The notes: generated by a model from the letters alone, not told the origin. A stretch of 64,000 nucleotides of DNA from Trichoplax sp. H2 (GCA_003344405.1 NOWV01000015.1:1-64000); one strand, 5' to 3'. Shown: positions 4,920 through 31,314, counted from the stretch's first letter. Translations and numbers: made by a program.

Positions 4920-6570
4920 AATAAAATATTAAACAGCATTCGAATTCGAACTGCAATTCCCATACACTCTCTTTAATCTAAACTGAACAATATCGATAAT
5001 TGGATGCCATACACTTATTTATACAGCAGGATTACAGAAGTCTATATCTAATGTTATTGTTATACATCAGAAGTTGAGGGCGGTAATTAATTATCAATTT
5101 AGGTCTGATCTTATACTAGCCTCTCTTTCATGCCCAAATTGTTTTTTGCAGTAATTAATTATAATATAAGCTACTAAATTTGAGATTCAGATTACATTCA
5201 TTATTTTCTTTTCTCTCTAAATATAATTGAATAGACTATGCATGCTGAGTTATCAAGCGAACAATGAAGTAACATTTATTTCTAAAGCTATCATCGGCTA
5301 TTATCAATATACCGGACTATATTAGCACCAAGTACACAAAAACTTTGCATAATGTATAGATATAATCGATAGCGCAATGCTTAGGTATAGCTTTTCATAT
5401 TTTTTAGAGAGTAATTTATAGCATAACTTCTTCGTAATAAGATTGATAAAAATAATAGATAAAATAATAGAATGCAGCCTTCGCATGTCTATGTAAGTAC
5501 GGCTAATTTATAGTTGTGATGAAATTTCATTGTAAATGAACGAAAAATCATAATAGCTGACCACCGTTGCTTAATCATTTTTTGTCCAATTTTTTTTGAT
5601 ATCTAATTAGATATTCATAAAACAGCTGTATACAGTACATCTTATTTAGGTGATCATTTCGATTAATATTGACCTACGGAATAAAAGATATTGTAGTAGA
5701 TGATGCATAAATAAAGCGTTTATTAGATAGTTGCTTCTAATAAGATAACTATAGTACTCTTTGGGCTATTTGTATGAAGTGTTTAAGGCTAACTAAGGTT
5801 ATGACCAATAGCCTCGAATTATTCCTATTTGAATAATCACGATGGCTGCAATGCGGAATATGCTTAATTCCGAGCTCATTTTAAAATTTGAATCTTGCCT
5901 ACTAATTACCGTTTTCACTGACATAGTAAAAAGATCTTGATGACTTTATTGATTAAGATGAAAATGATTCTGTTGAATGATTCACTGTTCAAATGAGAAT
6001 AAATCCGATTGATGTGCTGTTGTTTACAGTATACTGTCATTTTTATAGATAGTAGTTGTGTTTCTATTATAATCTGGTATAATTTTATAAACTTTGATGA
6101 TTCTATATTTGTTAAAGTAGATCTGATTGATTTTATTAAAATGATTTGTGGTAGATTATATTCTCGGCTTTGTAGTTATATGAAATTCTATAATTACGCA
6201 ATAAAATTTCACAAATCAAATTACGATTGTATCGATTGTTGTAAGATTCTAATTTTCAAAACCTTGTTGCTTTTGTTAGTTGCATTTATAAAGTGTTAAA
6301 TACTAGCAGATTGGACCGAAAAACTTTATTAGATTCTTACACGTTTTAAAGCTAATAACAATCTTATATACGAGTATATCGCTAATTCTAATCTATCAGT
6401 CCGTAAAATAATTATAATAGTAAAATTTATTTGCTATCTAAGGTAGATAATAAGAACTACATCGATGCTACTTGTTCTGATCTTCTAGTTGTGAGAATTT
6501 AGTTAGCGATGTAGAAAATTATATTGGTTATGCCATTTCATCATGATACTGTAAAATATGCAATTGTATA
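4920..6570. repeat. Degenerate segmental duplication, copy 2 (partner ~30-2820)
   Basis: Same collinear blocks as copy 1, interrupted by indels. Confidence 0.7.
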
Positions 6571-7318
6571 AAAGTCGCTAAGGGCGCATTGAATTATAGT
6601 GACTAGGTCATATATGTAATTCTTTAAATCAACCGCTATTAAGATCCGTAGTTCAAATAATTATAAGTTGAAGTTTATATCGATTTATTCATGGATGAAA
6701 TTGAATAGAGATTGGCTTTATGATTTACTTACGGATTGGACTAAATATGATTGATTGGACTATTTCGTTGATTATGCACATGTTTAAATACTGGTAATCA
6801 ATCTCTAGTGTTAAAATTAAAATTGTATATTGAAGTAAGAATTTGTTAATTATAAGATACCAAATAATGATGCTCATAATTTCAAAAGATATCTTTCTAG
6901 ATTGCTAATTAATAGCGTTCATGAGATATTTAATTAAATCAAAAAATTATAAGACATTACATGTCCTAGAGATGAAAAGCAGTTGTTAGATGTAGTTTGT
7001 ACATAAGCAATTTATACAAAGGATTTTAATATATTCTGATTTTAATCTATTCGTATGCAATGATTTGTGTCTTTTCTTTACTCAAGCACAAATATAAATG
7101 GTATGAAAAAATCGATATACCAAAAGTATATCGATGAATACATATTGTCGAAAACACATAAATACAAATTTACTTTTTGGTACATAAGTTACCGGTAATT
7201 TTTGCGAATTAAATTAATTGAAGACATCTTCACTAAATAAAACGAATGCTTGAAATATCAGCTTCTTTTAGTATCGCATATTTGTATAATATAGATTCGT
7301 TTGCGTTTGAATTTTAAC

Positions 7319-10300
7319 TTATTTATCTCGATTTAATATGGTTTCCGCGACCGAACGAAGACCACAAGCAAAGAGAGCCTTAACTAGTGCCAACTTTGTA
7401 AATGTTTCACCCATTAACTTACAATGTGAATCGAGCATGTCTACACACTGTTGATCAGTATCATTACTGTTGTCTTGAGAAATTTTCTTAATGTTAGTGT
7501 TGGTGAAATCTAACTCTCTTGCTAAATTTTTCCAATCAGGGCCTACTTTCTTAGAAATGATATTGATATAGGAGCTTGCAGCTACAAATTTACGGTATTA
7601 ACAATTCATTAAATTTCAATTTACTCTTACATTAAGCTATCCGTAAAGCATTTGTAAATTCATTTAATGCATACTACTAAGCACGATACAGTAATGGAGT
7701 TAAAAAATAAATAGCAGCCGGGTGACAAATTACATTTGGGATTAAGCTCAATAATGTAAGTAGAGTAAAAATGGATAATGTTAAATTAGTACGGTCATAA
7801 ACTTACGCGAATCCGGGCTGACGATGTAAATATCAACTTTTTGACCTTCGATATCATCAATTTGTCTTAGAACTGCATCATTTCTACCATTATCGTCCGT
7901 ATCTTCTACTATCGCAGTCACAAGGATAAATATAAATGTTTAATAAGAGCAAATATAGGATTGAAGAAATTGTCTAATGGCATGTCTTAAAGGTAAGTTC
8001 ATTAATTTGGCGGTACAAGGCACATTGAATGCGTTCGAGCGAAAACTAAAATCATTTCTGAGCTAATATAGCCCGATTTTATCGGTGTTGGTACCGTACA
8101 GCTGTTTTATTTTAAAATATATGCGGTTGTTTGCTAGCAGTAGAATTTACATTAAGCTTTTAATTGACGACGTTAAAGTCAATGCGCATATTAAAATGGA
8201 AGGGATTGAATCAGTAAACGATAAAGCTAGTATAGCTAGCACTTTAAGTCATCTATACAGAAATGAATTAGACTTTTTAGTCCACAGTGGGCTGGACTAG
8301 GAATTTCTTACAGACTTAATATTTATTGATATTATACATGCAAAGAAAATGAGGGGAACTGATGTATAACTTAGTGTAAGAAATTATCGATTTACTAATA
8401 AATACGAAAGCAAAATTAGTTCCGTAAATCTAATAGCTCATTTATGTCAAGTACTACAAGAATATAAATCAAAATCCAAGAATTGCGAATTAACTAATGT
8501 TTATCAAAATTTATCCAGCAAGGACGCGAATTTATCACTAATTAACTTACCGGATGACATAACCCACTTATGGGTAGATCCGCATTCATAAACATCGCTG
8601 CAATCGCAAAATATTATATCGGAGCTGCCATCGATAGGATTAGATACAGGATTAAAGAGATTACAGCTAGGACATTTTATAAAGTAAGAACAATCTGATT
8701 TTTCACATCTTGGCATCCTTTCTTTAATCAGGGATGATAGTTTATTCCGAAGAAATTCATATGGCTTCTTCTCATTTATGGATTTTTTCACCTTTGCTTC
8801 TATTTGTAGCTGTAATTGTGGTTTATTTGGTACCATTCGATAGCGATATTGGATACCAATATAGGAACTCTCTTTTTTAACTACAATATCATAACAATCT
8901 TCTTTCAGCCGATATTTTGCACACTTGTAACGTGGCTCAATCTCTGACTTTTTCCATTCTTTATAGCAAGATACAAGTAAACAAAATAAAATGCCATCAG
9001 GAATATAAGGCATTTGTGATGGCTTAAATCCAACGTAAAGCCATCCTGACACTTTAAATCCCTGGCAATCAAATTCTTGGCTATTTGAACGAAATAAATA
9101 GGGCACGAAATACTGATCAGGACAACCATCATCTTCTTTACTGACCTTGCAAATAATGTCATAAGATTCCATTAAATCTAATAAAAATTTTCTTTCCTTT
9201 TCTTCTACTCCGAGCTTGTCGAATTTGTCATTAATATAGTGTTGCGACATGATTCCTGTATTTCGAGCGACTTCATATTCTGCATTTATTGCTAGTCCTT
9301 TACTATCAGGTTTATCTAACTGAATAATTGAACGAAATACATTTAATAGCCATTCAACTTGAGTAACAACTTTTCCTTTGACAGGTTCTTTTTGGCAATA
9401 AACGATTTCTCCTAGATCATGAAGATAGAGTAACATTTGATGAATATCTTCAATGCCGTCGCATAATTTGTACTCTTTGGCTAATAGCTCGATTTCTTCA
9501 GCTGTCATAATTCTGCTAACACTCTGATTTAACTTTGTATGAAACTTTGCCGCTTCTTCATTAAATCGATCAGGAAATGTATGTAATATAGCTGCCATAA
9601 TATACCATTTAAGTGGAATTTGAGAGAAACGATCAATGAAGGGTTGATGATTAACAAAGTCCCTTAGAATATTATGTAATTGTCCGCAATTTTTTTGACG
9701 CTGCAATCGCGTTTCTTCACTGTTATCCTTGTCATTACAGTTAAATATAATTCCAGATCCATATATATGATCAGCATAAGAAGGAAATTCTCGAAGAATA
9801 GTATTTTTAAATATCTCAAATCTTTCTTGACAGGCCTTTTCATCACCTAATTTATCAGCGTGTGTCCCGACTAAAATAACCATAGGCCATGCGATATCTT
9901 CTAAAACACCATCTATTTCGGCCTTTGTCCTAGCAATACTTTTACTACTACCTATAATTGAAGCAAGCCATTCTTGTAGGGCTTCCAAGTATGTCATTTC
10001 AGTATTATTGCCTTCTCGATTAACGACATGATTGTTCATATCTTGAGACATATCTAGGACGAGAAGATAAATGCAATTGTGCGATAGGAATGGTTGATGA
10101 GTTATGTGATAAATAGAATGACCAGCAAAGTCCCATAGTTTACCGTAATGGCAGTGATCTATTACTGAAGCTTGATCTGATTCAGAGCTTCCTCGAAAGT
10201 AATTCTCAAGAAAATCTAGTGGAATCATGTCTTCATCAGCCGGCATAGCCTGAGGACTGGTCTCGACGAGATTGCTTGCATAAGCAGTACTATCTAATCG

Positions 10301-13300
10301 AATTAGTGGCGATGGTGTCGAGGATTCAATATCATTCAAGCTGGAATCAGTATATGATTCCTCTTCTCGTATTTGGCGTTTAACAGTTTCGATCGCTGTA
10401 ATGACTTTTCTAGCTAGAACTGCTTTAAAATCATCAACTGATTTATCATCCATGTTATAAGTGACCAATTTGACAAGTTCTTTTGTAATTACTGCTGCTG
10501 TTGTCGCTCCAACTGCTAGAATCAAGCCTTGTCGTATAAAAGCTTGAATAAGACATGATTTTCCAACATTTTGCGGACCGGTTATCATGATCCTAATAAA
10601 GTCATTACGACAGGATCCGCATCTTCTAGCTTTAACATAGGCTTCCTTATATTCTTTTTCTTAGGATAAATATGAATATTAAATATGAATAAAGAACGAA
10701 TAAAATTATTTTATTCATGCTTCATTTTCAATTAACTTTAGCTATAGTATTCTACGAAGTAATCCAATCTGTAAATCTGCACTACAATGCATTTAAAATT
10801 ATCTCAGTTTGAATCTAAATACATAAGACAACGGTACGAATTAAGGCTGTCGCCAATCCTAACAACTGTACAACCGTATCTATGGCTATTTAACTACTTG
10901 ATAAAAATAATGACGCTAATGGTGTAACTTAGAATACCTTCGGCAGACTTCGATGCCTTTATATTTTCGTCTTGAGTTTTATCTTCCTGTTCAGCTAATG
11001 GCTCTTCTCCTACATTAAATGAATATCGATCTTCAGAGTAACTTACGTCATTTTAATTCAAAGATTATTTATAACTAAATTCCTCGAGCTGATACAGTAA
11101 AGGCTAGCGATAGTAGCAAATTCTTTACCTTTAAGAATGCTTTCTATACTGATCCCACAGTATTGTAATGCATTACATAATTCGTTAAGCACCTTATCGT
11201 CATGCTGAGGTAGTGTTTCTAATAATGTTTTCATGCTCCTAGAATGGAAGTAGGCTTAGTTTAAGATCTCGCCTTAAAGTGATTTATTTTAGTATCAAAT
11301 ACGGTGTTTCAGTTCACTACTACTTCCAAATAAATAATGTGAAATAATGATAGCAAATATTAAAATGCTAACTCATGATCATTTGGTTTGGCAAAAATAG
11401 CAGATTGTTGAGATGGAGTTAAAATTTCTTTTGATCGCAGATATGAAGTAACCGCAGCGAAATTTTGTAGACAATCTCTGCTTTGTAGTGCGTAAATGTA
11501 AATTCGGTTCTGCTTTTGCTCATTAAATGTTTCAGAAGCCTTTTCAGATGGCAATTTAGTATCAGATGTTGCGGCATCTAGACATTGTAGGCGATTAATA
11601 CCATTACTTGCTCGTCAATGAAAGAAATAATGATCGCATGCTCATGGTCATGACTGCTGTATTAACAAGTCTGGCGATTAATAAATTCTCACTGTTGGTG
11701 GATACTACACCTTTGTATATGTCATAACTGGAATTCTCTGAATCTACTGTATCTTCTTCGTCTATATATAAAAATAAAATCAAATTTAAACTCTAATGTA
11801 AAGATTGAATTTTCTTACCTAGAAAGGGTTCAACGTTCGACCACTAGAACTACGTTTTAAATGCAAAGTACAATCTTAATTAGATTACTAACCTTCAGTA
11901 TCATCTGTTGCACTAATTCTGGGATCTACATTTTCCAAGTCTATAAATGTTTAGATAAAAGGATAACGTAATAAGTCTAATTAGCATAGGCTTCTAAATA
12001 TCGATTATCGCATAAATGAACTCTAATTTTCTCTGACTATGTAAGTATTAAAAAATATATTCGCTCCGTCTATTTAATGAAGTTATGATTTTCAGTGCTT
12101 TATAGTTGTAATGACTTGACTGTGTGTTTGTTCATAACTTTAAAGAGTCTTAATTTTTAAAGTAGTTGTATACCTTGATAAAATTCTTCCTCGTGAATAG
12201 ATTCATCATCAATCTGATTGCCTAATATTATCAAGAAATCATTAGATGAAACTAACTGAATCAAAGACTTACAATATAGCTACTAAGGTAAGTCAATTTC
12301 AGCAGGAGTATACTACAATACATTACAACCACATTTATGGTACATTAAAATTACCTTCAGAGGATCCACGGCCATCGCCGTAAAAAAGCTTCAATCTAGC
12401 TTCTACGAGAGACAAACGATGCAAAATATTAGTTTAGGCTCAAAATCCATAATGAATAAAGACATAAACGTTTGCTAAGGTATTGCATTGCGATTAGTAA
12501 TTAGAACTGTACCTTTAACACCAGGTTCACTTTTACTGGTAAGGATTTTGCTTGATGGACTTTCTGATTATAATTATTTAGAGTAGAGAAAGTGAGCGGT
12601 GGTAATTCGTATAAGTTTACATACCAGTATAAGAGAAATGCTCATTATACCGTACTTTTGATAATGCTTTTAAATTCTTCTTCATCTGTAGAACTTTCTT
12701 GTAGCTTAGCTTTAAATGTCGAAAATTTCGAAAGGGTATTTTAGACTGACAAAATTTATAACAGCAAAAGGTATAAAAAAAATATTGGCAATGAAATCGA
12801 TTACTACGATACCTTTACTAGAAACGATTTACCAATATTAGAGAAATGTACAGAGTATATTTATAGGTTAAGATGAATTCATGAAATATCAAAAATGCTA
12901 GGTACTTGACAATTATAATCAGATGGTTGCTAACTAGGATGAAGTTCTATTTTCCAAAATGATATGATTGCAATTACTCGACTGCATGGTTAACTTTAAT
13001 TAGTCATAATATTAAAGCGGTTGCATACCTTGATGGAACTTTCCGTCTTTAACGGATTTGTTATCCACTAGAATATCTAATAATTATAAATAAATATATT
13101 GTCATTAATTGTCCTGTTGGAGGTACTAAATTAGATTAATTTAGCAGGAGCATACTGTGATATTACATAGCCATGTTTATCAAAAAAAGGAAATTACCTC
13201 GAGAGGACTGAACTTTAGTATCAAAAGAAAGTTTTATTCTAGCTTCTAATTTAAAAATTGATATGAGTAATAAGCTTTAGCCGATGACATTGATGACAGA

Positions 13301-16300
13301 TAAAGAGAAAACTTTGGTAAGGTATCACCAGTTGTGATTATTACTGTACCTTTAGCGGGAGCTTTTTTCCTGCTATAAAAACTTTCATCTGTTTTATTTC
13401 CTAATTATTCAAGGAAAAGACAGATAGATAGTCGTAATGAATTGTGCATACAGATTGACAGACTTAAAACAAATTATTGAAAGATACATAGTACTCATTG
13501 ATTGATTCGTTATGAACAGAAATTGCGTTACAATTTCGAACATAATTGGGCATAATTATATACCACTGAATATCAGACGAGATAAATATGTAGTTTGATT
13601 CTTAAATTATTTGCACTCATTCATAATTCTAAGGTATAATTATTGCTGAAGTAGCAAGATACCATGAAGGAATTCTTGGCCAATGGAAGACTCATCAACA
13701 GAGTGATTGCCTAGTAATTAATTATATGAAATCATCAAGATGAAGTAAACTTAATCAATCTGTTATGATAATTAGCAGTCCCATGATCCAACATAAAGGA
13801 AGATTACTTAATGCATCGTATAGTAAAATCACCTTGAGAAAACTTAATTTCTTCGTCCAAAGAACTTTCTTGTAACTTGGCTTCGAACATCAAAAAATTA
13901 AACAAAAAGTGCATTTTAGACCAACAAAATTCATGACAGCATAAGGCATAGAATATTAGCCATGAAATTGATTACTACCGTACCTTTACTAGAAGCAATT
14001 TCTTGATGTGGTAAGCTGTTCTTTGATTTTCTTTCTGATATTCAAAGCGAGAAAGAAAATCAATCTGAATTCATGTTTTAGCTGAGAATACAAATCATCA
14101 AACGATGTAATACAGCCTAATATAAGTTACCGATGCCTTGAGGTGTATTCTTTTTCTTCTTTGCCTTACTTTTACGGCCTGATGCTAATTGCCCTATCTT
14201 ACTTGCAGTTGACCCAATCAATCCTGAGAAAGTGCTACTAGCGGCGACTATTTTTGATTCTACAGCAACGCCAAAAATTTAGTTAGCTGTTAAGTATCTA
14301 TTTTACTCTTATCGTTTCTTTGCGTAACAGAATACTGTTCTAATGCGATAACGTTTCTTTCTTATAGTTATCAGACTAGCATAATATAAATAATATGTTT
14401 AGAAGTTAATGTCTTATGATTGATTACTTACAGTCTGAAAATAAAATTAAAATTTATCAGACACTATAATGAAAGCCAAACAGTAACGAATACAGGTCAA
14501 CTGATATCAACCTAATATAAGCTAGTTACTGCTTTTTTAAGAGATTACATGTCTGTATTATGGTTAGTCTCCATCAGCAAGCAATGACTTTGCGTTAAAA
14601 AGTAGCATAGTAATATAGTTTGAAGCTAACATTATAATTATGGATATTGATCTTAATTGCACGGTTTGGTATCTTATGTTCAAGCTCACAATAAGTTAGC
14701 TCCTGTAATAAGATTAGATCTTCGAAGTACTTGCACTATTTTGCTTTCGATATATCAAATGGATAATTCAACGTAGTTTAAACTAGTATTTCAATGGTAA
14801 AGTCGAGGTGATTACCGCTTTAGCTGACATTTAAATAAATGGTTAGTGGAAAACTTTTCCAGATAGCACAAATAGAGCTGTTATGGAGCCAAGCTCCGAA
14901 ATAATAAAGGCCTTGTTAATTAAAACATCTCATATAAATCGTTGTTTGTTCCAGTATTCTAATAAACGTTAATGAATACTTATTTATTGATAAGGTTAAT
15001 GTCTAAGTAATTGAATACTAATACCTAAATGTAAGGTGTAATTTGTGCGGAGCCTTAAGGCTGTAATTAGCTTAAATAAATTTATTATTGTTAATTAGCG
15101 TTAACTTATACCGATTTATGTTAACTTCTTCTATTTAAATTCCTATACTATACAGTGTAAGTCGCTATGTCTAAGATACCAATACATGAACCATCGGCGG
15201 AGGCCGAGACTATATAGACTCGAGGACTAAATTAGCTGTTCAGTTCCATTTTAATCATTTTTAGATCCACTTGATCATTATTGCTAGGAATTTCTAACGT
15301 ACTTTTTAGTAAATTCTTTTATTAGGATTTATCTCAATAAAGTAAAGTCCTTAAACCTATTACCCGTTGGCTACTTATCTGTGTAGTCGAGAGTTAGTTC
15401 AACTACGATAAATCGCCTAAGTCAGTTGGAGACACGAGTAATCGTGACACTAGTGTAAGACCCGTTCGAAAAGGGAAATTCGTAACAAAACCCTATAACT
15501 TTTTATGAAGTGAATCACCTACGGAAATCCGGACTGATTGATAACGGGACTATTCCTTACATTGAGGTACATCTACAAGTTCTATCAACAGTTTCCTTCA
15601 TCTATTCACTTTAGAGTTACTCATTTAAATGACTCCTTTCTTTCAATATAGTGTAGGTAACGGCATAAATCACTGACGTGAAGTACGATATACCTACTAA
15701 AGGTAAAATGGCTTCATAATCATCTGAACTTACCTTCATTAGCAGGTTCATTTTGCTTTGCTTCTTGTCGTAACGTTGTACCTAGTTCTTTAATCGACTG
15801 CATTAAAGATCCTTCTAAGNNNNNNNNNNNNNNNNNNNNTGACAAAGCTAAGTACTTACTACCACTCATTCGTTTATTGATAATTACAACGGCTTTTATA
15901 TGTGCGCCGTCAACACTTACAGTGTAACGTTGTACAATACATAGTTTATGATATCCATATCTAGAATTAGGCATACTTGTAAATTGTAAATTAGTCACGA
16001 ATATTGATTCTATAATTATACAGCGTGAGTTAACTATCAATATGGACTGTAGATAATAACGCAGTTATCATCCATCCATCTTAAGCGTAGCATTACAAAA
16101 TACATATATAGAAATACTGTAAGACATATCAAACGGCATAAATCACTGACGTGAAGTACGATATACCTACTAAAGGTAAAATGGCTTCATAACCATCTGA
16201 ACTTACCTTCATTAGCAGGTTCATTTTGCTTTGCTTCTTGTCGTAACGTTGTACCTAATTCTTTAATCGACTGCATTAAAGATCCTTCTAAGACTTCACA

Positions 16301-16504
16301 AAATCCATAAAATTCTAAGTCGTTTTTTCTTCTTAAAATTGATATAAAAGATTTCGGTCCTTGATTTTTTATTTTTCTTAACTCCTGGTCTGATAGAATG
16401 CTTCGATTATGCAAAGTAATGAAAATGTCCAAAGAAGTAATGTTAACTAGGATGTCATGCTTATATTGACGGATAACATCGTTAATATGCCAACTAAGAC
16501 CCAT
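7319..16504 (-). CDS. Roco-family gene A: CARD - micro-exon linker - CARD - Roc GTPase - COR - death domain, ~20 coding exons, ~1290 aa if all exons are included
   Basis: Exons: 16504-16207 (CARD-like, MGLSWHINDVIRQYKHDIL...FYGFCEVL); 14259-14131; twelve micro-exons between 14034 and 11711; 11577-11373 + 11238-11129 (split CARD, ...YLRSKEILTPSQQSAIFAKPNDHE/SMKTLLETLPQHDDKVLNELCNAL); 11009-10938; 10659-8551 (Roc: GPQNVGKS, WDFAGH, LVGTHAD; COR-like: LLYLHDLGEIVY, VEWLLNVFRSII, LMESYDII, YFVPYL); 7905-7807; 7581-7319 (DD, IISKKVGPDWKNLARELDF...CGLRSVAETIL). All junctions are GT-AG and frame-compatible. Confidence 0.8.
11711..14034 (-). repeat. Array of duplicated 48-54-nt phase-1 micro-exons in gene A
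   Basis: Exons 14034-13984, 13880-13833, 13710-13663, 13400-13350, 13245-13198, 13076-13029, 12709-12656, 12563-12513, 12402-12355, 12221-12174, 11940-11893, 11761-11711. All have AG/GT borders, lengths divisible by 3 and no in-frame stops. Three exon types recur together with homologous flanking introns. Confidence 0.75.
15659..16292. other. Assembly gap (N 15820-15839) with an uncollapsed near-identical overlap: 15659-15819 vs 16132-16292
   Basis: The same ~160 bp, including the 3' end of the gene A CARD exon, lies on both sides of the N run and differs by about two substitutions. Confidence 0.8.
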
Positions 16505-19004
16505 CTTTGCAATTGAATTTTATTCACCTAGCAGCTATTGCTCCTAAGTCAAAGAAAATGGTAAAGATTGAAGAATGGCCTTTCTTTATTTCGTCTACAA
16601 GCGAAATAATATCAACTGGATCGAAGAAATTCAATTAAATTAATCGGCCTATTGAATTTTAAACATCAGAAGGATGCTTACAGATTAATTACCCATTATT
16701 TCAATTGCGAAAGTTACCTGCTGCAATATTCGGTAGAAGCTTCTTCTTACTAATTTCCACAACAATGATCACTTTGAATAGGCATAAAATGATTCCAGAT
16801 GATTAGAAAATCACTTAAAAGTGAAATAACGTTTAGATGATCTTTTAAACACCCAAAATAAACTGTAAACTGCTCATCTAAATGTAATCCAGACTCTTAT
16901 GTAATAGGCCTCAACAGGACGTAGTCGATTGTAATATATTGTTATAGCAATTTCCCTCTAGATAGCTGATGTTGATAATCAAAACTAAAACTGGCTTGTG
17001 ATCTACTTAATGATCTCATTAGAAGGATATTTATTATTAACAAAATGCTTCTTCTTTTAGTTGCCAAAATTGTTTGATGCCATATACCGTAGAAGCTCGT
17101 CTTTACTAATCGTTGCGGCAATGATACCTTCCCAGGGCAAAAAATGACTATTGATGATAGGAAAATGACTTAGAAATAAAATAAATGATATTTAAAAGGG
17201 CTTCGAAGAACTGTAAATCACTTATAAAAGTGCTATCCGAACACTTATCGAATAGAATACAACATGCCGTAATTGAAACTTATATTGCTTTGTAGAAATC
17301 TTCCTGCGTGTAGACAGTTCGTATCGATGATCAAAAGTATATTAGACTTGTGATCTACTTGGCGCTCTTCAGTGGTATAGTCACAGTTGCAAGCGAATAG
17401 CAACTCTATCAAATAGGATTTCCTGCTTATTGATGGCCTGAAATGGACACATGAACGATCATTATGGCTTTACTATCATAAACTGGAGGCAATCTCTATA
17501 GATTTGTATAGCCGGATGAACTGATCATTTATATAAACAAACTAATTTTTATCTGTTCGAGGAGCTAATCATATTGTTATGATTTCTTCGCCATCACGTG
17601 ATCAGTTTTGCATGATAAAGGAGCTGATCGAACGAGGTAAATTAATTTGCACATTTGCAATGATCGACTGCCATCAATTTATTTATAAATCGATCGATTG
17701 GCGCTTTTAAAAGGATCATGATGCTCCATCTGGTCTCCGCATCTTACTAATTAATTATTGAATGAATGAATCGAATTCAGCTGTATCGCAGTTTCAGGCT
17801 TGCATAGGCCTTGCCAAGAACGAAAAAGATTTACAAATTACTTTATTTGGGTATCATTTTGAAAATTTTAGCGATTGTAGATTGCAAATTGTAATTATTT
17901 TATTAGCAGTTTTAGTGGCTTGTGTAAAGCTAAAGAAAGGTAAACAGCTACATCCACGTGATGCTAATAGAAATACTGTCTATGCATGAAAATTTTGTAC
18001 AGGCAGTTGACGTAGGTTTAACTCTCAATAAAAGACTTTTTAAGTAAAGGATCACTACTTTCTAATAGTGGAATGAAATGAGCTAGCTATACATACTAAG
18101 AGAGATAGGAGAGACAGCAAAGGTGAGAATGAAACGATGGTGCAAAATGCAACACTTAAATTAGATATAGAGCTCAAACGTTTTAGTTTTAAATAATTGT
18201 AAAATAGAAATTGGATAGCTTAGGAAGAGCAAAATCCAGTTTTAGGAGCTTGAACAGCTTGTGAATGGAAAAGAAATAGAAAAAATTTATTGCAGCAGCA
18301 GTCAAGATATCTAAATCTTTGCTCATATCAAACCACTTACTTCCTATATCCTCATAATAAAGCTGATAGTAAACTATCTATATATCGGATTTTTGATCAG
18401 AGAGCTGATAGAGCATTAATTTTCACTGAAGAATTATTGATATAGAAGATAATTACTTTCCATAAGCGAAATAAAATCAGTTAGATATAAATACGACTAG
18501 ATGGAATGAGAGAGCGAAGATGGGAATGGAACGTATAACTTAGAATGTCACAATTTAAATTGGATACAGTTTTCAAACGCTGAAATTGATTGTAAATAAC
18601 TATACTGCATACGCAGTAGCACTCTTTTTCCGGCTTCAAATAATTAATCTGAATTTTTTAATCTCTTTGTAGTCTTGCAATATCGTAAGTTGTAATGTCG
18701 TCATCTAATATTATATTTACCGGCGAGGACCGATACTTAATATAGTCTGTATTGTTATATATTATAAGAATAATCTGTAACAAGATTTATTTATATTTTA
18801 AAAACAATTGCGTAACAACAATATATTAGATACTAAATAGAATTTACCATTATAATCAAGCAAATTAATCATACTTTGAAAGCTAGAATATTTATCACGA
18901 TACGAAAACTAAGCTAGAATAATTACAATGTAAAAACTTGCAGGAAAATTCTAAAAATTTACCTTCATTACATGAATGAATCGTATATTTTAGTATTCAT
19001 GCAA

Positions 19005-19400
19005 CTAAATTGAGGATAAAAGATGATATTTCGTAGCATCATGTATAGCGCACTCGTATATCTTGAAAGTTGAAAATGTTAAACCTGGATATTGTAGACG
19101 ATTGTCCGAAAACGCAATACTGTACTCGTAAATCCTATTCCACTCTTTTCTTTGTATAGGGTGATCTTTTTTCAATTTTTCAACTATATTTGGTTCTCTG
19201 CACTCGCATAAAACTTCTAATATTGTATCAAGCTTTGCTTTTGAGCCGAATTCAGAATACCATGCATCCAACAGATCATTACACTGGCGAAATCTGCCAT
19301 GGTTTGAATCAACTATTTCGTCAATGTTATTCGAAGACAAATGTAACTTTTTACCAAATTCGGTAAACTTTGCTTAATTTATATTATCCGCAATATATCT
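19005..19400 (-). pseudogene. Relic duplicate of the gene B terminal death-domain exon
   Basis: Reads YIADNIN*AKFTEFGKKLHLSSNNIDEIVDSNHGRFRQCNDLLDAWYSEFGSKAKLDTILEVL, homologous to 21685-21414. It has an in-frame TAA and no phase-1-compatible acceptor. Its downstream sequence (~19050-19145) matches the gene B 3' region (~21305-21405). Confidence 0.7.
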
Positions 19401-21413
19401 ATATATATATATGTAGCACATATATATTTAATGTATCGAATGTGGAATAATAATTGTATGGTTATGGTACACTCGTACGGTTATTGTACGGATATACTTA
19501 CATTAAAATGAATGTATTACAATACTCAAACACGAATTCGGCGTTATATGGGATTACAATTACTACTCTATTTTCCTACTTGTATACGCTAAAACTACAC
19601 CAACTTTATCAATTTTTATATGATTGCAGAATTAGATATCAATGATACTACTCATCCTACAAATATTACATATTGTAAGTATCGTTATTTTCGTATATTA
19701 AATATAGAATGCGATAATTAAATAGACCATTGCACGTACTGTATAATTTTTATTATTATTTACTGTATAATTACAATAATACTTGTACGATAATTATATT
19801 ATTGAACATTTTAAAGAATAAATTATCTGGTTATAATTTTAGTATGTCTTTAGAGAAATTAGTTTGATTAATGTGAATAATGGCAGTATTACGTTTAACT
19901 TACTGTAATTAAGTTTAATAAATCTATGAATAAAATGATAAAGCATAGACTACAATGAAATCCGTTAGGCTAAACAGCATTGATAAGCTCCTTTATGATA
20001 TTTATAATAACTTATTAAACACTGCAGAATATGTAAGATGTAGTCCATATGTAAATTAGTATACATTTTATAAAATTTTAATTTAAACGACGAAATAGGT
20101 GATCTTCATCCTCCTCAATAACTTTCGTTTCCTAATACAGTGGGACTGGAATATTTGATAATATTGATAACGATAATAATAGGAATATAATATAATATTT
20201 TATAGGATTTAGCTATCTATAAGTTTGATCATAAAGTTGACTCTCAGTTCCACTGAGACTAGCGAAGAGTATACTGGTACTAATTTACAATAGCTAATAA
20301 TATTAACAAAGCTCAATTAACTAAAGCATATTGTTTGACTGAATGCTCTAGTATTGGCTCGTAGGCTAATTTCCTTATAGAGTATACCCCGATATTAATC
20401 TAAGATTACATAGAGTAGATACACTAGTTTAAGTTCGATCACGAAAGCTGTTTTGTGATAGTCGCAAATAAAGATTAACGTACGAAGTAATACGAAAATT
20501 TTAACATTAAAGGAAATAAGCTATTTCTTGACATTGCAATCAGTCGTATAAATTACTAGCACTATTTAAAGTCTTTGCTTTATTAATAGACGTTTAACTA
20601 TAGTGTAAGTAGTAGAATTAGCACGTTAAAAGGATAAACCTTAAATGCTAAATATATCAGATACAAAAGTAATAAAAGTCGTCAATTTTCTTCAGCAAAG
20701 AAGTAAAATAATAGCTACTTCAATAACATTAGTAGTTACCAACTAAATTGTGTTATCTATTACATAAATTATATTCTGAGTCAAAGAAACTGTTGAAGAA
20801 CCTCGGTTTTGTACGTTTATGTTGCCTTCACTGCTGCATGATCATTATAAATAACTTTAATCATCAGCTCGAAATTTATGCATCGTATATTTTAGTCTTT
20901 ATACAATTAAATAGCGGATTCAAGGTAATACTTTGTATCATCAATTGTATCATACTTGTTGTTACACTTTCTAGTTTATCGTAACAATAATTTAATTGTC
21001 CAGTAGGGCTTGAGTACTGAACAATCACGAGTCCAATAGAGCTTAAGTACCGAACTAACTTTATTATGCGTTAGGAGCCGTTATATATAAGAGATAATTA
21101 CCAGTAATGTGCAATAACGGACATACCATGAATGTTAACGACAATCTTATCTTATTCATAATAAGATAACAACTTATTTTTCCTAGATATGCTATCTAGG
21201 ACTTAATCGTCATCATTACAGAACAACTGCAGAAATATACTGAATAAACAGGCTTATTCAAAATGATAGATCTTATCGATACTATGTCTACAACAACTGT
21301 ATTATTTCGTAACACTTGTATATCTTGAAAATTGAAAATAGTGGGCCTGGATATTGTGGATGATTACTCTAAGAGGTAGTAAAATACCCATAGATCCTGT
21401 TTCACTCTTATAT

Positions 21414-24400
21414 TTATTCTAAATAATCCTTTTTCAATTGGTCCGCAATTTTTGTCTCTTTGCATCCACGCAAAATTCTAAATATTGTATCAAACTCTGC
21501 TGCTGAGCCGAATTCAGAATACCATGCCTCCAACAAACGAAAGCACTTGCTAAATCTGCTAGCATTCGAATCGACTATATCGCTAATGTCATTCGAAGAT
21601 AAATATAACCTACGACCAAATTCTTCTAACTTAGCTGATTTTATGTTATTGGCGATGGATACGAAGATATCATGCCTTTTAGAATCTAAAGGACATCAAA
21701 ATATTAAAGCAATCAATAAATTGGGTGGAATTGCTAATTCATTGTCATTGCCTAATTTCCAATTATAGCACATCTATATCTATATATTATTGGGAATACT
21801 GAAAATCATAGACAATGAATTATTTTATTTTAGGTAGTCTTAACTTAGTATTGAACAAATGAGTAGATTTTACATTGAAACTGGTTTTAGTATGATAATG
21901 ACAATTCATTCCTGTTGCGAAACTATGGCAATGGATTAATAGTTTTTAAAACAATGAAATGACTGCGCTACAAAAGTTATACCGTACTTAGTGAGAAAGT
22001 ATCATCAAGCTGTTACATGTTCTTAAAAGCTATTTGAGACAGCTAGATGACCATTACTGACTTACCATCTTGTATTGGATCCATAGCGTTTTGAGTTGCT
22101 GTTCCTCCTTGTTCAATATTTGCAGATTCTTGTGCAACGGGTTTAATATCCACAGATTTGCGTTAATAGAAGCAAGTAACATATAAATAAACATGAAGTT
22201 ATTAAATTTTTTCACATTAAAACTACCGGCTCATTCAAGTTGCTTGATATGAAATTACTGCAGGTTTTGCAACATAATTCTATCCATATATTTTTAACGA
22301 ACTCTATACTTACTTCTATGAAATTAAAAAAGCGACAAAAAAAACAATCAGGATCAATTTGAAAGATTCTATTAACTTATATAATTTAGAGCTCATTCTT
22401 CCTTTTATTACACTACTTTAAAAGCCTAAATGAGATCTACGTTAAACTATTTATCACTATTCAAACATTTACGATTTTATTGGAATATGAGTGAGGCTCC
22501 AATTTCAGACATCAAAACATTATTTTACGGCAAAAGAAATGAGAAGGATAATAAAATTGTAGCATTTATTCGCTAATAGTTCAAATATTCACTGCTAATA
22601 AATTGATTAACATTTAATCTAGTTAAATCGATAAAACGACTAAAAATCCATTTATTTTTACGTACGTAGTTTATGGATGTCTACCGCTGATTGAGACTAA
22701 AACTGATGTAATGTTGATTATTATTCGTTAAATAGACGGTGTCAACTCCAAAACTCATAGATAGATTTCAAGTTTTTTGCTAGTGACTTAGCTGACTAAA
22801 GCTAAATTAAATAGAAATATCGGTAGTATCCCAGGTAATATTAAAATGTCCAGCCAAAATCAAGTTATAACCTTTAGGTCAATTTTACTTGCATTTACTG
22901 TTATCAGACTTAGCCACGAATATCTAGCAGAATTGGGATAACTTAAAAATTAACCTTATTGGCCGGAATGGTAATGAAAGAAGGAATTGAGATATTAATA
23001 GATTCTTAATGAATCAACTCTCAGCTACTCGTCTAGTCAAGAGAAGTAACTTATAATTCATTTTGCTAATATGATATTTTTTAAATTTAGTCTGCAATTA
23101 AACATAAAATTTTTATCTTATTTGGCTATACCTAATGATATTGTCCACCCATGGGCAGATTCACATTCATAAATTCCATTGCAATCGCAATAGAGCAGCT
23201 TTAAATTATCTTGAACCGGATTCTTTATTTGTAAAAATCTATCGCAAGGAGATAGAGGACATTTTATAAAATATAAGCAATCTGAATTTTGGCATCTTGG
23301 CATCCTTTCCTTAATCAATGATTCCAGTTTATTTCTAATAAATATATACGGTGGCTTTTCATATATCAGTTTTTTTACTTTATCCTTTATCTGTCCCTGT
23401 AGCCTAGGGTTATTAGGTATTATTCGATAGCGATATTGAATACCAATATAGGAACTCTCTTTTTTAACTATAATGTCACAAAAATCATTTTTCAGGCGAT
23501 ATTTTGCACACTTGGAACGCGGTTCGATACTTGACCCTTTCCATTCTTTATAGCAAGATACAAGTAAGCAAAAGAATATACCATCTGGAATATAATGTAG
23601 TTTTGATGACTTAAACCCAACATATAACCATCCCGACGTCATAAATCCTTTGTGATCAAATTCTTGATTATTTGAACGAAATAAATAGGGTACAAAATAC
23701 TGATCTGGGTGATTATCATCTTTATTACTGATCTTGCAAATCATGTCATAAGATTCCATTAAATCTAATAAAAACTTTTTTTCCTTTTTTTTTACTTCTA
23801 GCTGATCGAATTTGCCATAAATATAGTGTTGCGACATAATTCCTTTATTTCGAATTGCTTCATATTCCAAATCCATAGCTAATCCATTACTGTCAGGCTC
23901 ATCTAGCTGAATAATTGTACGAAATATATTTAATAGCCATTCAACTTGAGTAATGACTTTTCCTTTGACAGGTTCTTTCTGACAATAAACAATTTCTCCT
24001 AGATCATGTAGATAGAGTAACATTTGGTGAATATCATCTTTTCCTTCACATAATTTATACTTTTTCGCTAGAAGCTCGACTTCTTCAGCCGTCATAATTC
24101 TACTAACACGTTGATTTAAATTTGTAGAAAATTTTACCGCTTGTTCATTAAATCGATCAAGAGATGTGTGCAATATAGCTGCCATTATATACCATTTGAA
24201 TGGAATTTTAGAAAAGTGATCAATAGAAGGTTGATTATGGACGAAATCTTTCAGGATATTATGCAATTGACCACAATTTTTTTGACGTTGCAATAGCGTT
24301 TTTTTACTGTTATCTTTATCATTGCAGTTAAATATTATTTTTGATCTGTATATATGTCTAGAATAAGAAGGAAGCTTTTCATTAATACATTGACAAAATT

Positions 24401-27400: not shown

Positions 27401-28386
27401 TTCAATTTGATTGTCAAGTTCACTTAGTGGCGGCGACTCTAGATTAGTATAGTATAAAACTTATATTACATTGATGTTGTAACAGCTAAAATATGTTTGA
27501 TCTGTATGATTGTATGGCATAATGAGTGAATTGAATACTGTAGTTCATACTAATGTTATTATCTAAAAGTCAATTTAATTTAATTTGCTAATAATCATAT
27601 AAGGATATAGGTATTATCAATATTTCAAGCTTTTAAAAATGCAGTAACAATATATCTGAAGTCTTACACAAAATGGCCAACAAAAGTGATAAATTCTACC
27701 TTATTTGATTTTTAAAAAATATTACTACTCGCCAAAATACTCTCAGCTATCAACGAATAACCGTGCATAAGAGCATTAGCTGATTCAGTGTATAAGCAAA
27801 TCAGTCATTTTCAACAAAGCCTCCACATCAATATATGTATGTTACGTTTGTATATCTAGTGTGCCATGATTATAATCTACTAAACAAATCGTGTTAAAGA
27901 TACAAGTAACTTGTCCTACAAGAACCTTGATTGCGGCTTATTTCATGGGCAATATCGAATCTACTAATGCATCGTAAGCCATTTTTCAGTTCCTCAAAGG
28001 TGGAATACGTGTATGAGCCACGTTTCTGGTACCAGATATAGAGAAATGTCATCGCTTGATCAACTATGTTATAATTTTTTGCCTTAATTGCTTCAATGTC
28101 AATTAAAGGATCTAATATCGCTGCTAATTTTATCCAGTCCATGTCAATCTTGTTTGCAATTCTGAAAAAAACGGCTGTAGGATCTATAAAGCGCATAAAA
28201 TACACCAATCTTAAACATGCGGTAGCAGAAAAATGCTAACAGTTTGCAGTTCGAATTATTAATTATTAATAGAATAATCAAGTTATTAAACGAAACAATC
28301 AATTCGATTAACTTTCCTAATCGTAACAACGTTGAATTTAAGAATCGATATTCAAGGTAAGGTTACGGACCTTCTATGCTATCCAT
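21414..28386 (-). CDS. Roco-family gene B: DD - DD - Roc GTPase - COR - DD, ~10 coding exons, ~1080 aa
   Basis: Exons: 28386-28371 (MDSIE); 28183-27926 (DD1, FFRIANKIDMDWIKLAAIL...RFDIAHEI); 27438-27367; 27135-26884 (DD2); 26623-26552; 26407-26348; 25577-25518; 25252-23132 (Roc-COR: GPQNVGKS, WDFAGQ, LIGTHAD, YLHDLGEIVY); ~22128-22066 (acceptor uncertain); 21685-21414 (DD, IFVSIANNIKSAKLEEFGRRLYLS...LLEAWYSEFG...IADQL). All are phase 1. The ORF-track start at 25403 is intronic. Confidence 0.8.
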
Positions 28387-31247: not shown

Positions 31248-31314
31248 AATGCCTTGTAAACGCTGTTTTCATTCTTGCAGTTGAAGAAGTGCTAAAGCAA
31301 GTGAATAGTGAAAA

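What the first reader, a model, noticed from the sequence alone, without database searches (positions are those of the whole stretch)
11711..14259. Twelve in-frame 48-54-nt micro-exons form a repeat-expanded disordered linker between the two CARDs of gene A
Seen, but invisible to the ORF track: a three-exon cassette (51, 48, 48 nt) recurs about 3-4 times with homologous introns. One copy has decayed (a donor at ~12813 with no usable acceptor). Exon lengths, phase and open frame are preserved while the encoded peptides have diverged strongly (e.g. NHSVDESSIGQEFLH / ILVDNKSVKDGKFHQ / NQIDDESIHEEEFYQ). The last micro-exon encodes EEDTVDS, a DxxD-S caspase-type motif. Inference: any subset can be skipped without frameshift, giving a combinatorially spliced spacer. 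Alternatively it is a fast-evolving protease-bait linker whose cleavage releases the N-terminal CARD, analogous in logic to NLRP1/CARD8 tripwires.
Basis: partly seen in the sequence, partly recalled or inferred. Interest (0 to 1): 0.7.

Follow-up and report, generated by a model that had tools for sequence, protein, structure and literature searches.

The report
Real micro-exon spacer in placozoan CARD gene
Twelve tiny exons in a Trichoplax cell-death/immune-type gene are genuinely spliced into its mRNA and encode a floppy spacer that grew by repeated duplication of a three-exon unit, which is a tidy but ordinary example of how disordered linkers evolve.

Summary
On the minus strand, 11711-14034 holds 12 exons of 48-54 nt. 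All have AG/GT borders and all are phase 1-1. A 129-nt exon (14131-14259) precedes them. RNA contigs from three studies carry GT..AG joints exactly at these borders. One 2641-nt contig runs from the Roc-COR exon through the whole array.

The window matches Trichoplax sp. H2. Its public evidence-based model RDD45513.1 (1318 aa) already contains all 12 exons. The T. adhaerens H1 annotation splits the gene into TRIADDRAFT_61413 and 61412.

The exons form A-B-C cassettes: three complete, one partial with a decayed A copy. Paralogous exons have diverged about as far as their introns, yet all stay open.

The protein is CARD, then a ~240-aa compositionally disordered spacer, then a probable second CARD, then Roc-COR and a Death domain.

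Combinatorial splicing was not seen. The caspase or protease-bait idea has no support: DxxD motifs are not enriched, and no FIIND-type domain is present.

This is a new member of a known kind, tandem duplication of symmetric exons encoding disorder. Interest is modest.

The parts
16717..17369 (-). Upstream non-coding leader exon (5' UTR), spliced to exon 1
   Evidence: Joint 16542->16717 (CT..AC) in X4 and X9. Contig pieces lie at 16717-17369 and 16717-17244. An in-frame stop lies before the ATG.
16207..16542 (-). Exon 1. The ATG is at 16504-16502. It encodes CARD1 (aa 1-99) and its donor is in phase 1.
   Evidence: Sequence read. A profile of relatives hits Apaf-1 CARD at E 3.1e-5. The AF2 model has pLDDT 92-98 over residues 1-90. 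VIA-align gives Z 12.9, rmsd 1.7 A over 88 residues to Apaf-1 CARD 4rhw_E. Pfam gives no direct hit.
14131..14259 (-). E0, a 129-nt phase 1-1 exon. It is Ser/Gly/Ala-rich and then polybasic (KSKAKKKKN). It is unrelated to the cassettes.
   Evidence: X4 depth in the bins fits. It is present in P0075 and P0087.
13663..14034 (-). Cassette 1: E1 (A, 13984-14034, 51 nt), E2 (B, 13833-13880, 48 nt), E3 (C, 13663-13710, 48 nt)
   Evidence: The E3/E2 joint 13709->13832 (cut +1) is seen in X4 and X6. The E1/E2 joint was not displayed.
13029..13400 (-). Cassette 2: E4 (A, 13350-13400, 51 nt), E5 (B, 13198-13245, 48 nt), E6 (C, 13029-13076, 48 nt)
   Evidence: The X4 depth implies 97.8 covered bases against 99 exon bases in bin 13106-13472, and 47.9 against 48 in bin 12739-13105. 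The X6 loose end at 13662 matches the end of E4.
12813..12835 (-). Decayed A-type exon copy. The donor and about 20 nt are retained, there is an in-frame TAA, and the 5' half is lost. It is not spliced in.
   Evidence: blastn gives 75.8% over 157 nt between 12678-12830 and 13849-14001. z = 21.1 against E1. The RNA joint 12709->13029 skips it.
12656..12709 (-). E8, the B-type exon of partial cassette 3 (54 nt). The C-type exon of this cassette is missing: the gap to E9 is 92 nt, against 432 nt between E2 and E4.
   Evidence: Joints 12563->12656 and 12709->13029. z = 14.7 against E2.
12174..12563 (-). Cassette 4: E9 (A, 12513-12563, 51 nt), E10 (B, 12355-12402, 48 nt), E11 (C, 12174-12221, 48 nt)
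   Evidence: All borders are given by joints in X4, X6 and X9. z-scores are E4-E9 9.9, E5-E10 5.4 and E6-E11 16.8.
11711..11940 (-). E12 (11893-11940, 48 nt) and E13 (11711-11761, 51 nt). These acidic exons are unrelated to the cassettes. E13 holds EEDTVDS.
   Evidence: Joints 11577->11711, 11761->11893 and 11940->12174 are seen in X4, X6 and X9.
11129..11577 (-). Two exons (11373-11577 and 11129-11238) encoding the second, probable CARD (aa ~365-446 of the RNA-based model)
   Evidence: Joints are. Pfam CARD scores E 2e-4, 21.7 bits, against a cut-off of 23.9 on P0087 residues 404-459. hhalign against the CARD1 family gives E 4.4e-4, probability 34%. The Atlas scores 0.90 to CARD clusters.
10938..11009 (-). 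A 72-nt phase 1-1 exon encoding an acidic connector before the Roc domain
   Evidence: Joints 10659->10938 and 11008->11128 (cut +1). It is present in P0015.
8551..10659 (-). Large exon encoding Roc GTPase and COR
   Evidence: Pfam gives COR-A 49.6 bits (cut-off 35.3) and Roc 39.7 bits (cut-off 27). It is 99% identical to TRIADDRAFT_61412.
7319..7908 (-). Two last coding exons (7807-7908 and 7319-7581). The last encodes the Death domain and the stop codon.
   Evidence: Pfam Death scores 51 bits (cut-off 22.6). Joints 7581->7807 and 7908->8551 are.

Best explanation
The region is the middle of one 1293-codon gene of Trichoplax sp. H2, a ROCO-family protein. Its order is CARD, then a ~240-residue spacer, then a probable second CARD, then Roc GTPase, COR and a Death domain.

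The spacer is encoded by a 129-nt exon and twelve 48-54-nt exons, all in phase 1-1. Ten of the twelve belong to an A-B-C three-exon cassette that was duplicated in tandem. The likely history has three steps. First the triplet doubled into a six-exon unit. Then the six-exon unit duplicated. Then the second unit lost half of its first A exon and all of its first C exon.

Because every exon is symmetric, each duplication or loss changed spacer length without breaking the frame. Selection has kept splice sites, length and open frame, but hardly the residues. This is what is expected of an intrinsically disordered, Ser/Lys/Glu/Asp-rich tether.

In the dominant mRNA all twelve exons are included.

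Inferred, not shown: the spacer acts as a flexible leash. It would set the reach and local concentration of the Apaf-1-like N-terminal CARD relative to the second CARD and the Roc-COR dimerisation core. Nucleotide-dependent self-association of the core could then cluster CARDs and recruit CARD-bearing partners such as the CARD-caspases reported in this species.
For: Shown:
- Exon borders, phase and open frame.
- RNA joints at the borders in X4, X6 and X9, which come from three studies. X5 has no joints and its contigs cover introns.
- One X4 contig of 2641 nt accounts for 1889 nt placed, plus 594 nt of micro-exons, plus 129 nt of E0, plus 29 nt. Its depth matches exon-only coverage within 2 bases in 8 of 10 bins.
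- The RNA-based model differs from the public H2 protein RDD45513.1 at only three model-building places, with no substitutions.
- Cassette homology covers both exons and introns: blastn 75.8% over 157 nt at E 1e-25 and 70.8% over 106 nt, and z-scores up to 21.
- Paralogous exons are diverged like their introns. Pooled pN is 0.42 and pS 0.58 for cassette 2 against cassette 4; intron identities are 68-79%.
- The chance of 198 open codons is 1.4e-7.
- Disorder: FoldIndex is -0.19 for the micro-exon part, against +0.10 for CARD1 and +0.11 for Roc-COR. AF2 pLDDT is 35-55 and mostly coil over residues 100-291 of P0075, against 92-98 for CARD1.
- Domains.
- Literature: ROCO genes with CARD and death domains are recorded in Trichoplax (PMC4104024, passages read). 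CARD-caspase genes are recorded in H2 (PMC6321704, passages read). Symmetric exons, tandem duplication and disorder are linked in human genes (PMC3632108, abstract read).
Against: - 5 of the 13 chain joints and the CARD1-to-E0 joint were not displayed (7 joints hidden). They rest on bookkeeping and on two gene models.
- Two depth bins show 31 and 6 extra bases in X4. An X4 contig over E0 also has an 86-letter loose end that is not in the window. A variant form or a paralogue therefore exists and is unexplained.
- The H1 model TRIADDRAFT_61413 omits E2, E3, E5 and E8, which could be a real isoform.
- The AF2 run had no aligned relatives for the spacer and covered only 8 of the 12 micro-exons, so low pLDDT is weak evidence of disorder.
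- C-type exons keep a few positions ([VI]D, S, F), so some residues may matter.
- The leash function is entirely inferred.
Confidence: 0.75

Rival explanations
1. Combinatorially spliced spacer. Subsets of the symmetric exons are skipped to give many isoforms with different spacer lengths or motif content. The brown-algal ROCO genes, whose one-LRR-per-exon arrays are alternatively spliced, would be the model.
For: 12 of 12 micro-exons, plus E0 and the 72-nt exon, are phase 1-1, so any subset can be skipped in frame. The H1 model P0075 lacks E2, E3, E5 and E8 but stays in frame. X4 shows unexplained extra depth in bins 13473-14206. Both gene models use a donor 18 nt downstream in E13 that the RNA contigs do not use. 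The brown-algal ROCO precedent is in PMC11378527 (passages read).
Against: None of the 15 displayed joints skips a live micro-exon. Three runs from three studies give the same full-inclusion path. P0075 comes from the 2008 annotation and may simply have missed small exons. Contigs cannot show rare isoforms either way.
Confidence: 0.12
2. Multivalent short-motif array. Each cassette carries a short linear motif or phospho-acceptor cluster, and duplication increased the valency for a binding partner or kinase.
For: C-type exons keep [VI]-D at positions 3-4, S at 7 and F at 13 in 3 of 3 copies. B-type exons start with a basic-aliphatic pattern in 4 of 4 copies (peptides). Acidic Ser-rich stretches recur.
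Against: Amino-acid identity between paralogous exons is only 2-6 of 15-16, and pooled pN/pS is 0.73. Some of the conserved ends coincide with splice-site nucleotides. The word-based search of proteins of 30-723 aa found only the H1 orthologue and the Atlas gave no usable hit; proteins of the query's own size or longer were not searched with the linker.
Confidence: 0.1
3. Protease bait or tripwire. Caspases or pathogen proteases cut the spacer (for example at DTVD|S) and release the N-terminal CARD.
For: E13 encodes EEDTVDS. Three DxxD motifs cluster at aa 321-331. The gene is of a death-fold, immune-like type.
Against: DxxD count is 3 against 1.56 expected from shuffles of the same composition, P = 0.19. 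No FIIND, ZU5 or UPA autoprocessing domain is among the 7 Pfam families found at E up to 10. In NLRP1 and CARD8 the CARD is C-terminal and is freed by degradation of the N-terminal part (recalled from general knowledge), which is a different topology. The H1-H2 comparison shows no excess change: 1 residue in the 8 comparable micro-exons, against 7 in 883 residues of the rest.
Confidence: 0.03

Closest known systems
Tandemly duplicated symmetric (phase 1-1) exons encoding intrinsically disordered regions (general class; Schad, Kalmar and Tompa 2013, PMC3632108, abstract read). Titin PEVK exons and the 54-nt collagen exons are textbook cases recalled from memory.
   Same: Small exons all share one phase. 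The array grew by internal tandem duplication. The encoded segment is disordered by composition. Length and frame are conserved more than sequence.
   Different: The unit here is a three-exon cassette, not a single exon. No alternative splicing was seen in the RNA contigs. The array sits between two death-fold domains of a ROCO protein in a placozoan.
Brown-algal ROCO genes with one LRR per 72-nt phase-2 exon, exon shuffling and alternative splicing (PMC11378527, passages read)
   Same: Same protein superfamily (Roc-COR core). An N-terminal array of equal-phase small exons was expanded by duplication.
   Different: Those exons encode folded LRR units under diversifying selection and are shown to be alternatively spliced. 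These exons encode a non-repeat-fold, low-hydrophobicity spacer with no isoforms seen.
DAPK1 and other metazoan ROCO proteins; Trichoplax ROCO repertoire (Civiero et al. 2014, PMC4104024, passages read)
   Same: Roc-COR followed by a C-terminal Death domain, as in DAPK1 (recalled). That review lists CARD and death domains around Roc-COR in Trichoplax.
   Different: No kinase or ankyrin domains were found. There are two CARDs separated by a 240-aa spacer. The H1 annotation that was current when the review appeared splits this gene in two.
NLRP1 / CARD8 protease tripwires
   Same: A disordered segment lies next to a CARD in an immune-type protein.
   Different: There is no FIIND (ZU5-UPA) domain. 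The CARD is N-terminal rather than C-terminal. There is no evidence of cleavage or of rapid evolution.

Membership tests
CARD (death-fold superfamily), N-terminal domain (aa 1-99) | Sequence match to CARD profiles | tested here: met
   There is no direct Pfam hit at E up to 0.1. A profile of the domain plus 9 relatives hits Apaf-1 CARD at E 3.1e-5, then CED-3, CARD8, BCL10, RAIDD and NLRC4. 10 of the 11 relatives scanned have a Pfam CARD hit at E up to 0.05, and 4 of 11 score above the 23.9-bit cut-off.
CARD (death-fold superfamily), N-terminal domain (aa 1-99) | Six-helix bundle with a kinked first helix, closest to solved CARDs | tested here: met
   The AF2 model with an 11-row alignment has pLDDT 92-98 and helices 5-13/15-21, 25-33, 39-48, 50-59, 62-73 and 78-93. 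VIA-align gives Z 12.9, rmsd 1.7 A over 88 residues to Apaf-1 CARD. 26 of the top 27 rows are natural CARDs (the other is a designed protein). PYD, DED and DD chains score Z 8.0 or lower.
CARD, second domain (aa ~365-446) | Sequence match to CARD profiles | tested here: inconclusive
   Pfam CARD scores E 2e-4, 21.7 bits, below the 23.9 cut-off. hhalign against the CARD1 family gives E 4.4e-4, probability 34%, with 57 columns in register. The Atlas feature score is 0.90 with 181 shared features, and all ten best named hits are CARD. phmmer against PDB finds no CARD.
ROCO proteins | Roc GTPase domain immediately followed by a COR domain | tested here: met
   Roc scores 39.7 bits (cut-off 27) and COR-A 49.6 bits (cut-off 35.3) in exon 8551-10659.
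Death domain (PF00531) at the C-terminus | Pfam match above the cut-off | tested here: met
   51 bits against a cut-off of 22.6; 46.4 bits in P0087.
Tandem array of duplicated symmetric exons encoding disorder | All exons in the same phase with lengths divisible by 3 | tested here: met
   12 of 12 micro-exons are phase 1-1, as are E0 and the 72-nt exon.
Tandem array of duplicated symmetric exons encoding disorder | Homology between units that extends into the introns | tested here: met
   blastn results are. Intron pairs are 74-79% identical with few gaps for three pairs. z-scores are 3.7-21 for the pairs that link the 10 cassette exons and the decayed copy, but some same-type pairs score below 2.5: E3-E6 0.2, E5-E8 -0.7, E8-E10 -0.6, decayed copy vs E4 2.2 and vs E9 1.6. 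E12 and E13 are not related to them.
Tandem array of duplicated symmetric exons encoding disorder | The encoded segment is intrinsically disordered | tested here: inconclusive
   FoldIndex is -0.19; 72% of residues are disorder-promoting. AF2 pLDDT is below 50 for most of residues 111-291 of P0075. That region had no aligned relatives, only 8 of the 12 exons were in the model, and no dedicated disorder predictor or experiment was available.
Alternatively spliced exon arrays (titin-PEVK type or algal ROCO LRR type) | Several isoforms differing in which array exons are included | tested here: inconclusive
   No skipping joint is among the 15 displayed and 7 were not displayed. Contigs drop rare forms. 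The H1 model lacks 4 exons.
NLRP1/CARD8-type tripwire | FIIND (ZU5-UPA) autoprocessing domain upstream of a C-terminal CARD | tested here: not met
   The Pfam scan of the full 1318-aa protein at E up to 10 lists only COR-A, Death, Roc, CARD, Dynamin_N, MMR_HSR1 and Mre11_DNA_bind. Both CARDs are N-terminal.

The most novel reading that the evidence does not exclude
The cassette array could be an evolvable, variably spliced leash of a placozoan ROCO 'death-fold signalosome'. Copy number and exon choice would differ between placozoan lineages or conditions. That would tune how far an Apaf-1-like CARD can reach. Alternatively the array would offer decoy cleavage sites to caspases or microbial proteases. 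This would be an early-animal analogue of tripwire logic built on a GTPase rather than on a NACHT or FIIND scaffold.
Probability: 0.07. Interest if true: 0.65.

Novelty: new member of a known kind. Interest (0 to 1): 0.3.

Why it matters
- **Annotation.** In the T. adhaerens H1 reference, TRIADDRAFT_61413 (352 aa, called a CARD protein) and TRIADDRAFT_61412 (883 aa, Roc-COR-Death) are two halves of one expressed gene. The true architecture has two CARDs on a long tether.
- **Example value.** The gene is a clean, RNA-verified case of a disordered linker growing by cassette duplication of symmetric exons in an early-branching animal. Introns serve as an internal neutral yardstick.
- **Limits.** It opens no long-standing question. 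The general phenomenon is known, and the H2 gene model already contains the exons.

Tried and rejected
- **Tandem Repeats Finder** on 10000-16000 found nothing at cassette scale. The copies are too diverged and have indels.
- **Global MAFFT** alignment of the two six-exon units mis-aligned the first half. Piecewise alignment and shuffle z-scores were used instead. Gapped identities of 60-70% between unrelated AT-rich pieces proved uninformative.
- **Window's own genome.** None is held for this window, so paralogous linkers elsewhere in the genome, such as at the TRIADDRAFT_62404/62406 locus, could not be examined.
- **Search with the linker** (residues 118-362 of P0087) among shorter proteins found only the H1 model P0075. 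The Atlas gave no usable hit for the linker. No transcript-derived isoform proteins were recovered.
- **The two Roc-COR searches** found no orthologue from another placozoan genus, so a cross-genus comparison of copy number or dN/dS was impossible.
- **Single-sequence AF2 of CARD1** was poor, with mean pLDDT 66.5. It was replaced by the alignment-based run.
- **phmmer of the second CARD against PDB** gave only chance-level hits.
- **The 30-letter loose end** of an X4 contig at 14145 has no match in the window. It remains unexplained.
- **Run X5** showed no joints and covered intron stretches, so it was treated as DNA-like.
- **Earlier-findings index** had nothing for this genome.
- **Rejected: gene-prediction artefact or chance ORFs.** The RNA joints exclude this.
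- **Rejected: a gene on the plus strand.** All joints are CT..AC, which is minus-strand GT..AG.

Full report
**What the window is**

The sequence is AT-rich (about 31% G+C) and eukaryotic. The 718-codon open stretch at 8504-10660 on the minus strand is 99% identical to Trichoplax adhaerens TRIADDRAFT_61412.

The exact residues match Trichoplax sp. H2 protein RDD45513.1 (P0087, 1318 aa). My RNA-based translation has no substitutions against it. It has 7 substituted residues against the H1 protein P0015 and 1 against P0075.

H1 and H2 genomes are reported to be 99.1% identical, and the H2 gene models are evidence-based (PMC6057997, passages read).

The window holds three Roc-COR paralogues: 8551-10659 on the minus strand, 23118-25409 on the minus strand and 32187-34457 on the plus strand. 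Death-domain exons lie nearby. At least 17 ROCO genes with CARD, death, TPR and LRR domains were already noted in Trichoplax (PMC4104024, passages read).

**Checking the observation**

Joined in order with the flanking exons, they give one open frame of 1293 codons. It runs from the ATG at 16504 to the stop after 7319. All twelve micro-exons (51, 48, 48, 51, 48, 48, 54, 51, 48, 48, 48, 51 nt) have canonical AG and GT borders and are phase 1-1. So are the preceding 129-nt exon E0 and the later 72-nt exon.

With the local base composition a random codon is a stop with probability 0.077. 198 open codons therefore have a probability of about 1.4e-7.

**RNA evidence**

Logan contigs of four runs were laid on 6500-17500.

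- Three runs from three studies and two organism labels (X4, X6, X9) show CT..AC joints, which are GT..AG on the minus strand. The joints are 11577->11711, 11761->11893, 11940->12174, 12220->12354, 12402->12513, 12563->12656, 12709->13029 and 13709->13832.
- Both borders of E13, E12, E11, E10, E9 and E8 are therefore seen directly. So are the 3' border of E6 and the E3/E2 junction.
- The fourth run, X5, has no joints and covers introns, so it behaves like DNA.
- Seven further joints were found but not displayed.

Bookkeeping fills the rest.

- The 2641-nt X4 contig is placed up to 11577 with 1889 nt. The remaining 752 nt equal the 594 nt of the twelve micro-exons, plus 129 nt of E0, plus 29 nt.
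- Its depth of 17 reproduces the exon-only base count within 2 bases in 8 of 10 bins. These include the bins holding E4+E5 (97.8 against 99) and E6 alone (47.9 against 48).
- The X6 and X9 contigs add up in the same way.
- An X6 loose end at 13662 matches the end of E4 as read.

Two bins (13473-14206) show 31 and 6 extra bases in X4. One X4 contig over E0 continues into 86 letters that are absent from the window. These are unexplained and may reflect a paralogue or a minor form.

The joint from the CARD1 exon to E0 was not displayed. It rests on phase compatibility, on the 29 spare nucleotides, and on both public gene models.

**Public annotation**

The H2 model P0087 contains all twelve micro-exons. 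It differs from the RNA-based model at three places.

1. It has an 18-residue repeat, taken from a 161-bp duplicate that flanks an N gap.
2. It reads GTV instead of AK at the E1/E2 junction.
3. It uses an 18-nt longer E13. The three RNA runs do not use that donor.

The H1 annotation splits the gene.

- TRIADDRAFT_61413 (P0075, 352 aa) carries CARD1, E0, E1, E4, E6 and E9-E13, and runs into the intron after 11373.
- TRIADDRAFT_61412 (P0015, 883 aa) starts at the internal ATG near 11234.

So the exons were 'invisible to the ORF track' but are not new to the databases.

**The repeat structure**

- blastn finds 13849-14001 similar to 12678-12830 (75.8% over 157 nt, E 1e-25), and 12991-13095 similar to 12135-12239 (70.8% over 106 nt).
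- Local alignment of each exon with 45-nt flanks, scored against shuffles, gives three classes.
  - A: E1, E4, E9 and a dead copy (z 6.2 to 21.1; the dead copy matches only E1, at 21.1, and scores 2.2 and 1.6 against E4 and E9).
  - B: E2, E5, E8, E10 (z 3.7 to 14.7 for four of the six pairs; E5-E8 and E8-E10 are at noise level, -0.7 and -0.6).
  - C: E3 and E6, each matching E11 (z 16.5 and 16.8) but not each other (0.2).
  - E0, E12 and E13 match nothing.
- The order is therefore A-B-C, A-B-C, (dead A)-B-(no C), A-B-C, then two unrelated acidic exons.
- The strongest links join cassette 1 to 3 and cassette 2 to 4. This fits duplication of a six-exon unit.
- The missing C exon corresponds to a gap of 92 nt between E8 and E9, where cassette 1 has 432 nt.
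- E11 resembles both E3 and E6, which hints at mosaic history or gene conversion.
- The dead A copy keeps its donor and about 20 nt, but has an in-frame TAA and no 5' half. RNA skips it.

**Divergence**

- Ungapped codon comparison of paralogous exons gives 2-6 identical residues of 15-16.
- pN is 0.33-0.49 and pS is 0.43-0.72. The pooled pN/pS is 0.73 for cassette 2 against cassette 4.
- The homologous introns are 68-79% identical.
- The samples are tiny and near saturation. Even so, residues have been as free to change as intron bases, while frame, length and splice sites were kept.
- This is divergence between old copies, not evidence of fast evolution. H1 and H2 differ by 1 residue in the 8 comparable micro-exons, against 7 in 883 residues elsewhere.

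**The protein**

- *CARD1.* It gets no direct Pfam hit. A full-library HMMER search finds a family of short MGLS-initiated proteins at E 3.9e-9 to 3.4e-5. 10 of the 11 scanned have a Pfam CARD hit and 4 of 11 score above the cut-off. Their profile hits Apaf-1 CARD at E 3.1e-5. The AlphaFold model built with them has pLDDT 92-98 over residues 1-90 and a split first helix. It superposes on Apaf-1 CARD with Z 12.9, rmsd 1.7 A over 88 residues, and CARDs fill the top of the list.
- *Second domain.* It is split over exons 11373-11577 and 11129-11238. It scores 21.7 bits for Pfam CARD against a cut-off of 23.9. It aligns in register with the CARD1 family (hhalign E 4.4e-4). It resembles CARD clusters in the Atlas (0.90). 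I call it a probable CARD.
- *Roc, COR and Death.* All pass their Pfam cut-offs.
- *Spacer (aa 100-341).* FoldIndex is -0.12, and -0.19 for the micro-exon part. 71% of its residues are disorder-promoting. It is predicted as low-confidence coil (pLDDT 35-55 over residues 100-291 of P0075). The caveat is that this part had no aligned relatives and lacked four exons.

**How it most likely works**

Shown: the gene is transcribed, all twelve exons are in the dominant mRNA, and the array grew by cassette duplication.

Inferred: the spacer is a flexible tether. Its length is the selected property, and the symmetric exon design lets that length change by unequal crossing-over without frameshift. By analogy with other death-fold and ROCO proteins, self-association of the Roc-COR core would bring tethered CARDs together to recruit CARD partners. 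Two CARD-caspase genes are reported in H2 (PMC6321704, passages read). That paper does not mention ROCO genes or exons ('roc', 'roco' and 'exon' each occur 0 times).

- *Combinatorial splicing.* It is permitted by phase but not observed. It cannot be excluded from contigs, and the H1 model lacking four exons is either a hint or an artefact.
- *Protease bait.* It has no support. DxxD occurs 3 times against 1.56 expected, P = 0.19. There is no FIIND-type domain. The topology differs from NLRP1 and CARD8 (recalled from general knowledge).

**Comparison and novelty**

The closest general class is tandemly duplicated symmetric exons encoding disorder (PMC3632108, abstract read). The closest case within the same protein family is the brown-algal ROCO LRR exon arrays, which encode folded repeats and are alternatively spliced (PMC11378527, passages read).

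My searches for Trichoplax/placozoa with CARD, death domain and Roc and for tandem exon duplication with disordered linkers turned up no description of this array. Supplements were not read.

I rate it a new member of a known kind with modest interest. Its main practical value is the corrected gene structure for the H1 reference.

Noticed in passing
window 15659-16292: A 161-bp stretch that includes the last 86 nt of the CARD1 exon and its donor occurs twice, at 15659-15819 and 16132-16292 (98.8% identical). The copies flank a 20-N gap (15820-15839) and a 292-bp piece (15840-16131). Contigs over that piece end in several different loose ends on both sides and have raised depth, as a dispersed repeat would. 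The H2 gene model turns the duplicate into an 18-residue repeat that the H1 model lacks. This is probably an assembly artefact or a repeat insertion in intron 1.
   Followed up: partly
window 7905-7908: The acceptor of exon 7807-7908 is a TAG|TAG tandem. Runs X4 and X6 join 8551 to 7908, and X9 joins it to 7905. That is a one-codon (Val) NAGNAG-type difference.
   Followed up: no
window 11693-11711: Both public gene models use a donor 18 nt downstream of the one used by the RNA contigs of three runs. This adds GVVSTN to E13. It may be a minor alternative donor or a shared prediction error.
   Followed up: partly
window 14131-14259 (E0): An X4 contig covers E0 from 14145 upward and then continues into 86 letters that are absent from the window. 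This suggests a paralogous transcript or another splice partner elsewhere in the genome.
   Followed up: partly
window 16208-16504 and relatives P0076-P0086: CARD1 belongs to a family of short proteins (about 100-150 aa) that nearly all begin with MGLS and carry invariant F65, F68, C69, L72 and G84. They may be first-exon-only models of further CARD-tethered genes or true CARD-only proteins. One of them, P0084, is CARD-spacer-Death.
   Followed up: partly
window 19005-36000: Two further Roc-COR genes lie at 23118-25409 (minus strand) and 32187-34457 (plus strand). Death-domain exons lie at 19005-19373, 21414-21695, 26717-27187, 27894-28235 and 35427-35732. Small acidic exons resembling the 72-nt connector exon lie at 26529-26690 and 27329-27460. 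Together they form a tandem cluster of death-fold ROCO genes.
   Followed up: partly
window 14131-14259: E0 encodes a polybasic run (KSKAKKKKN) after a Ser/Gly/Ala-rich stretch. It could be a nuclear-localisation-like or membrane-binding patch. This was not tested.
   Followed up: no
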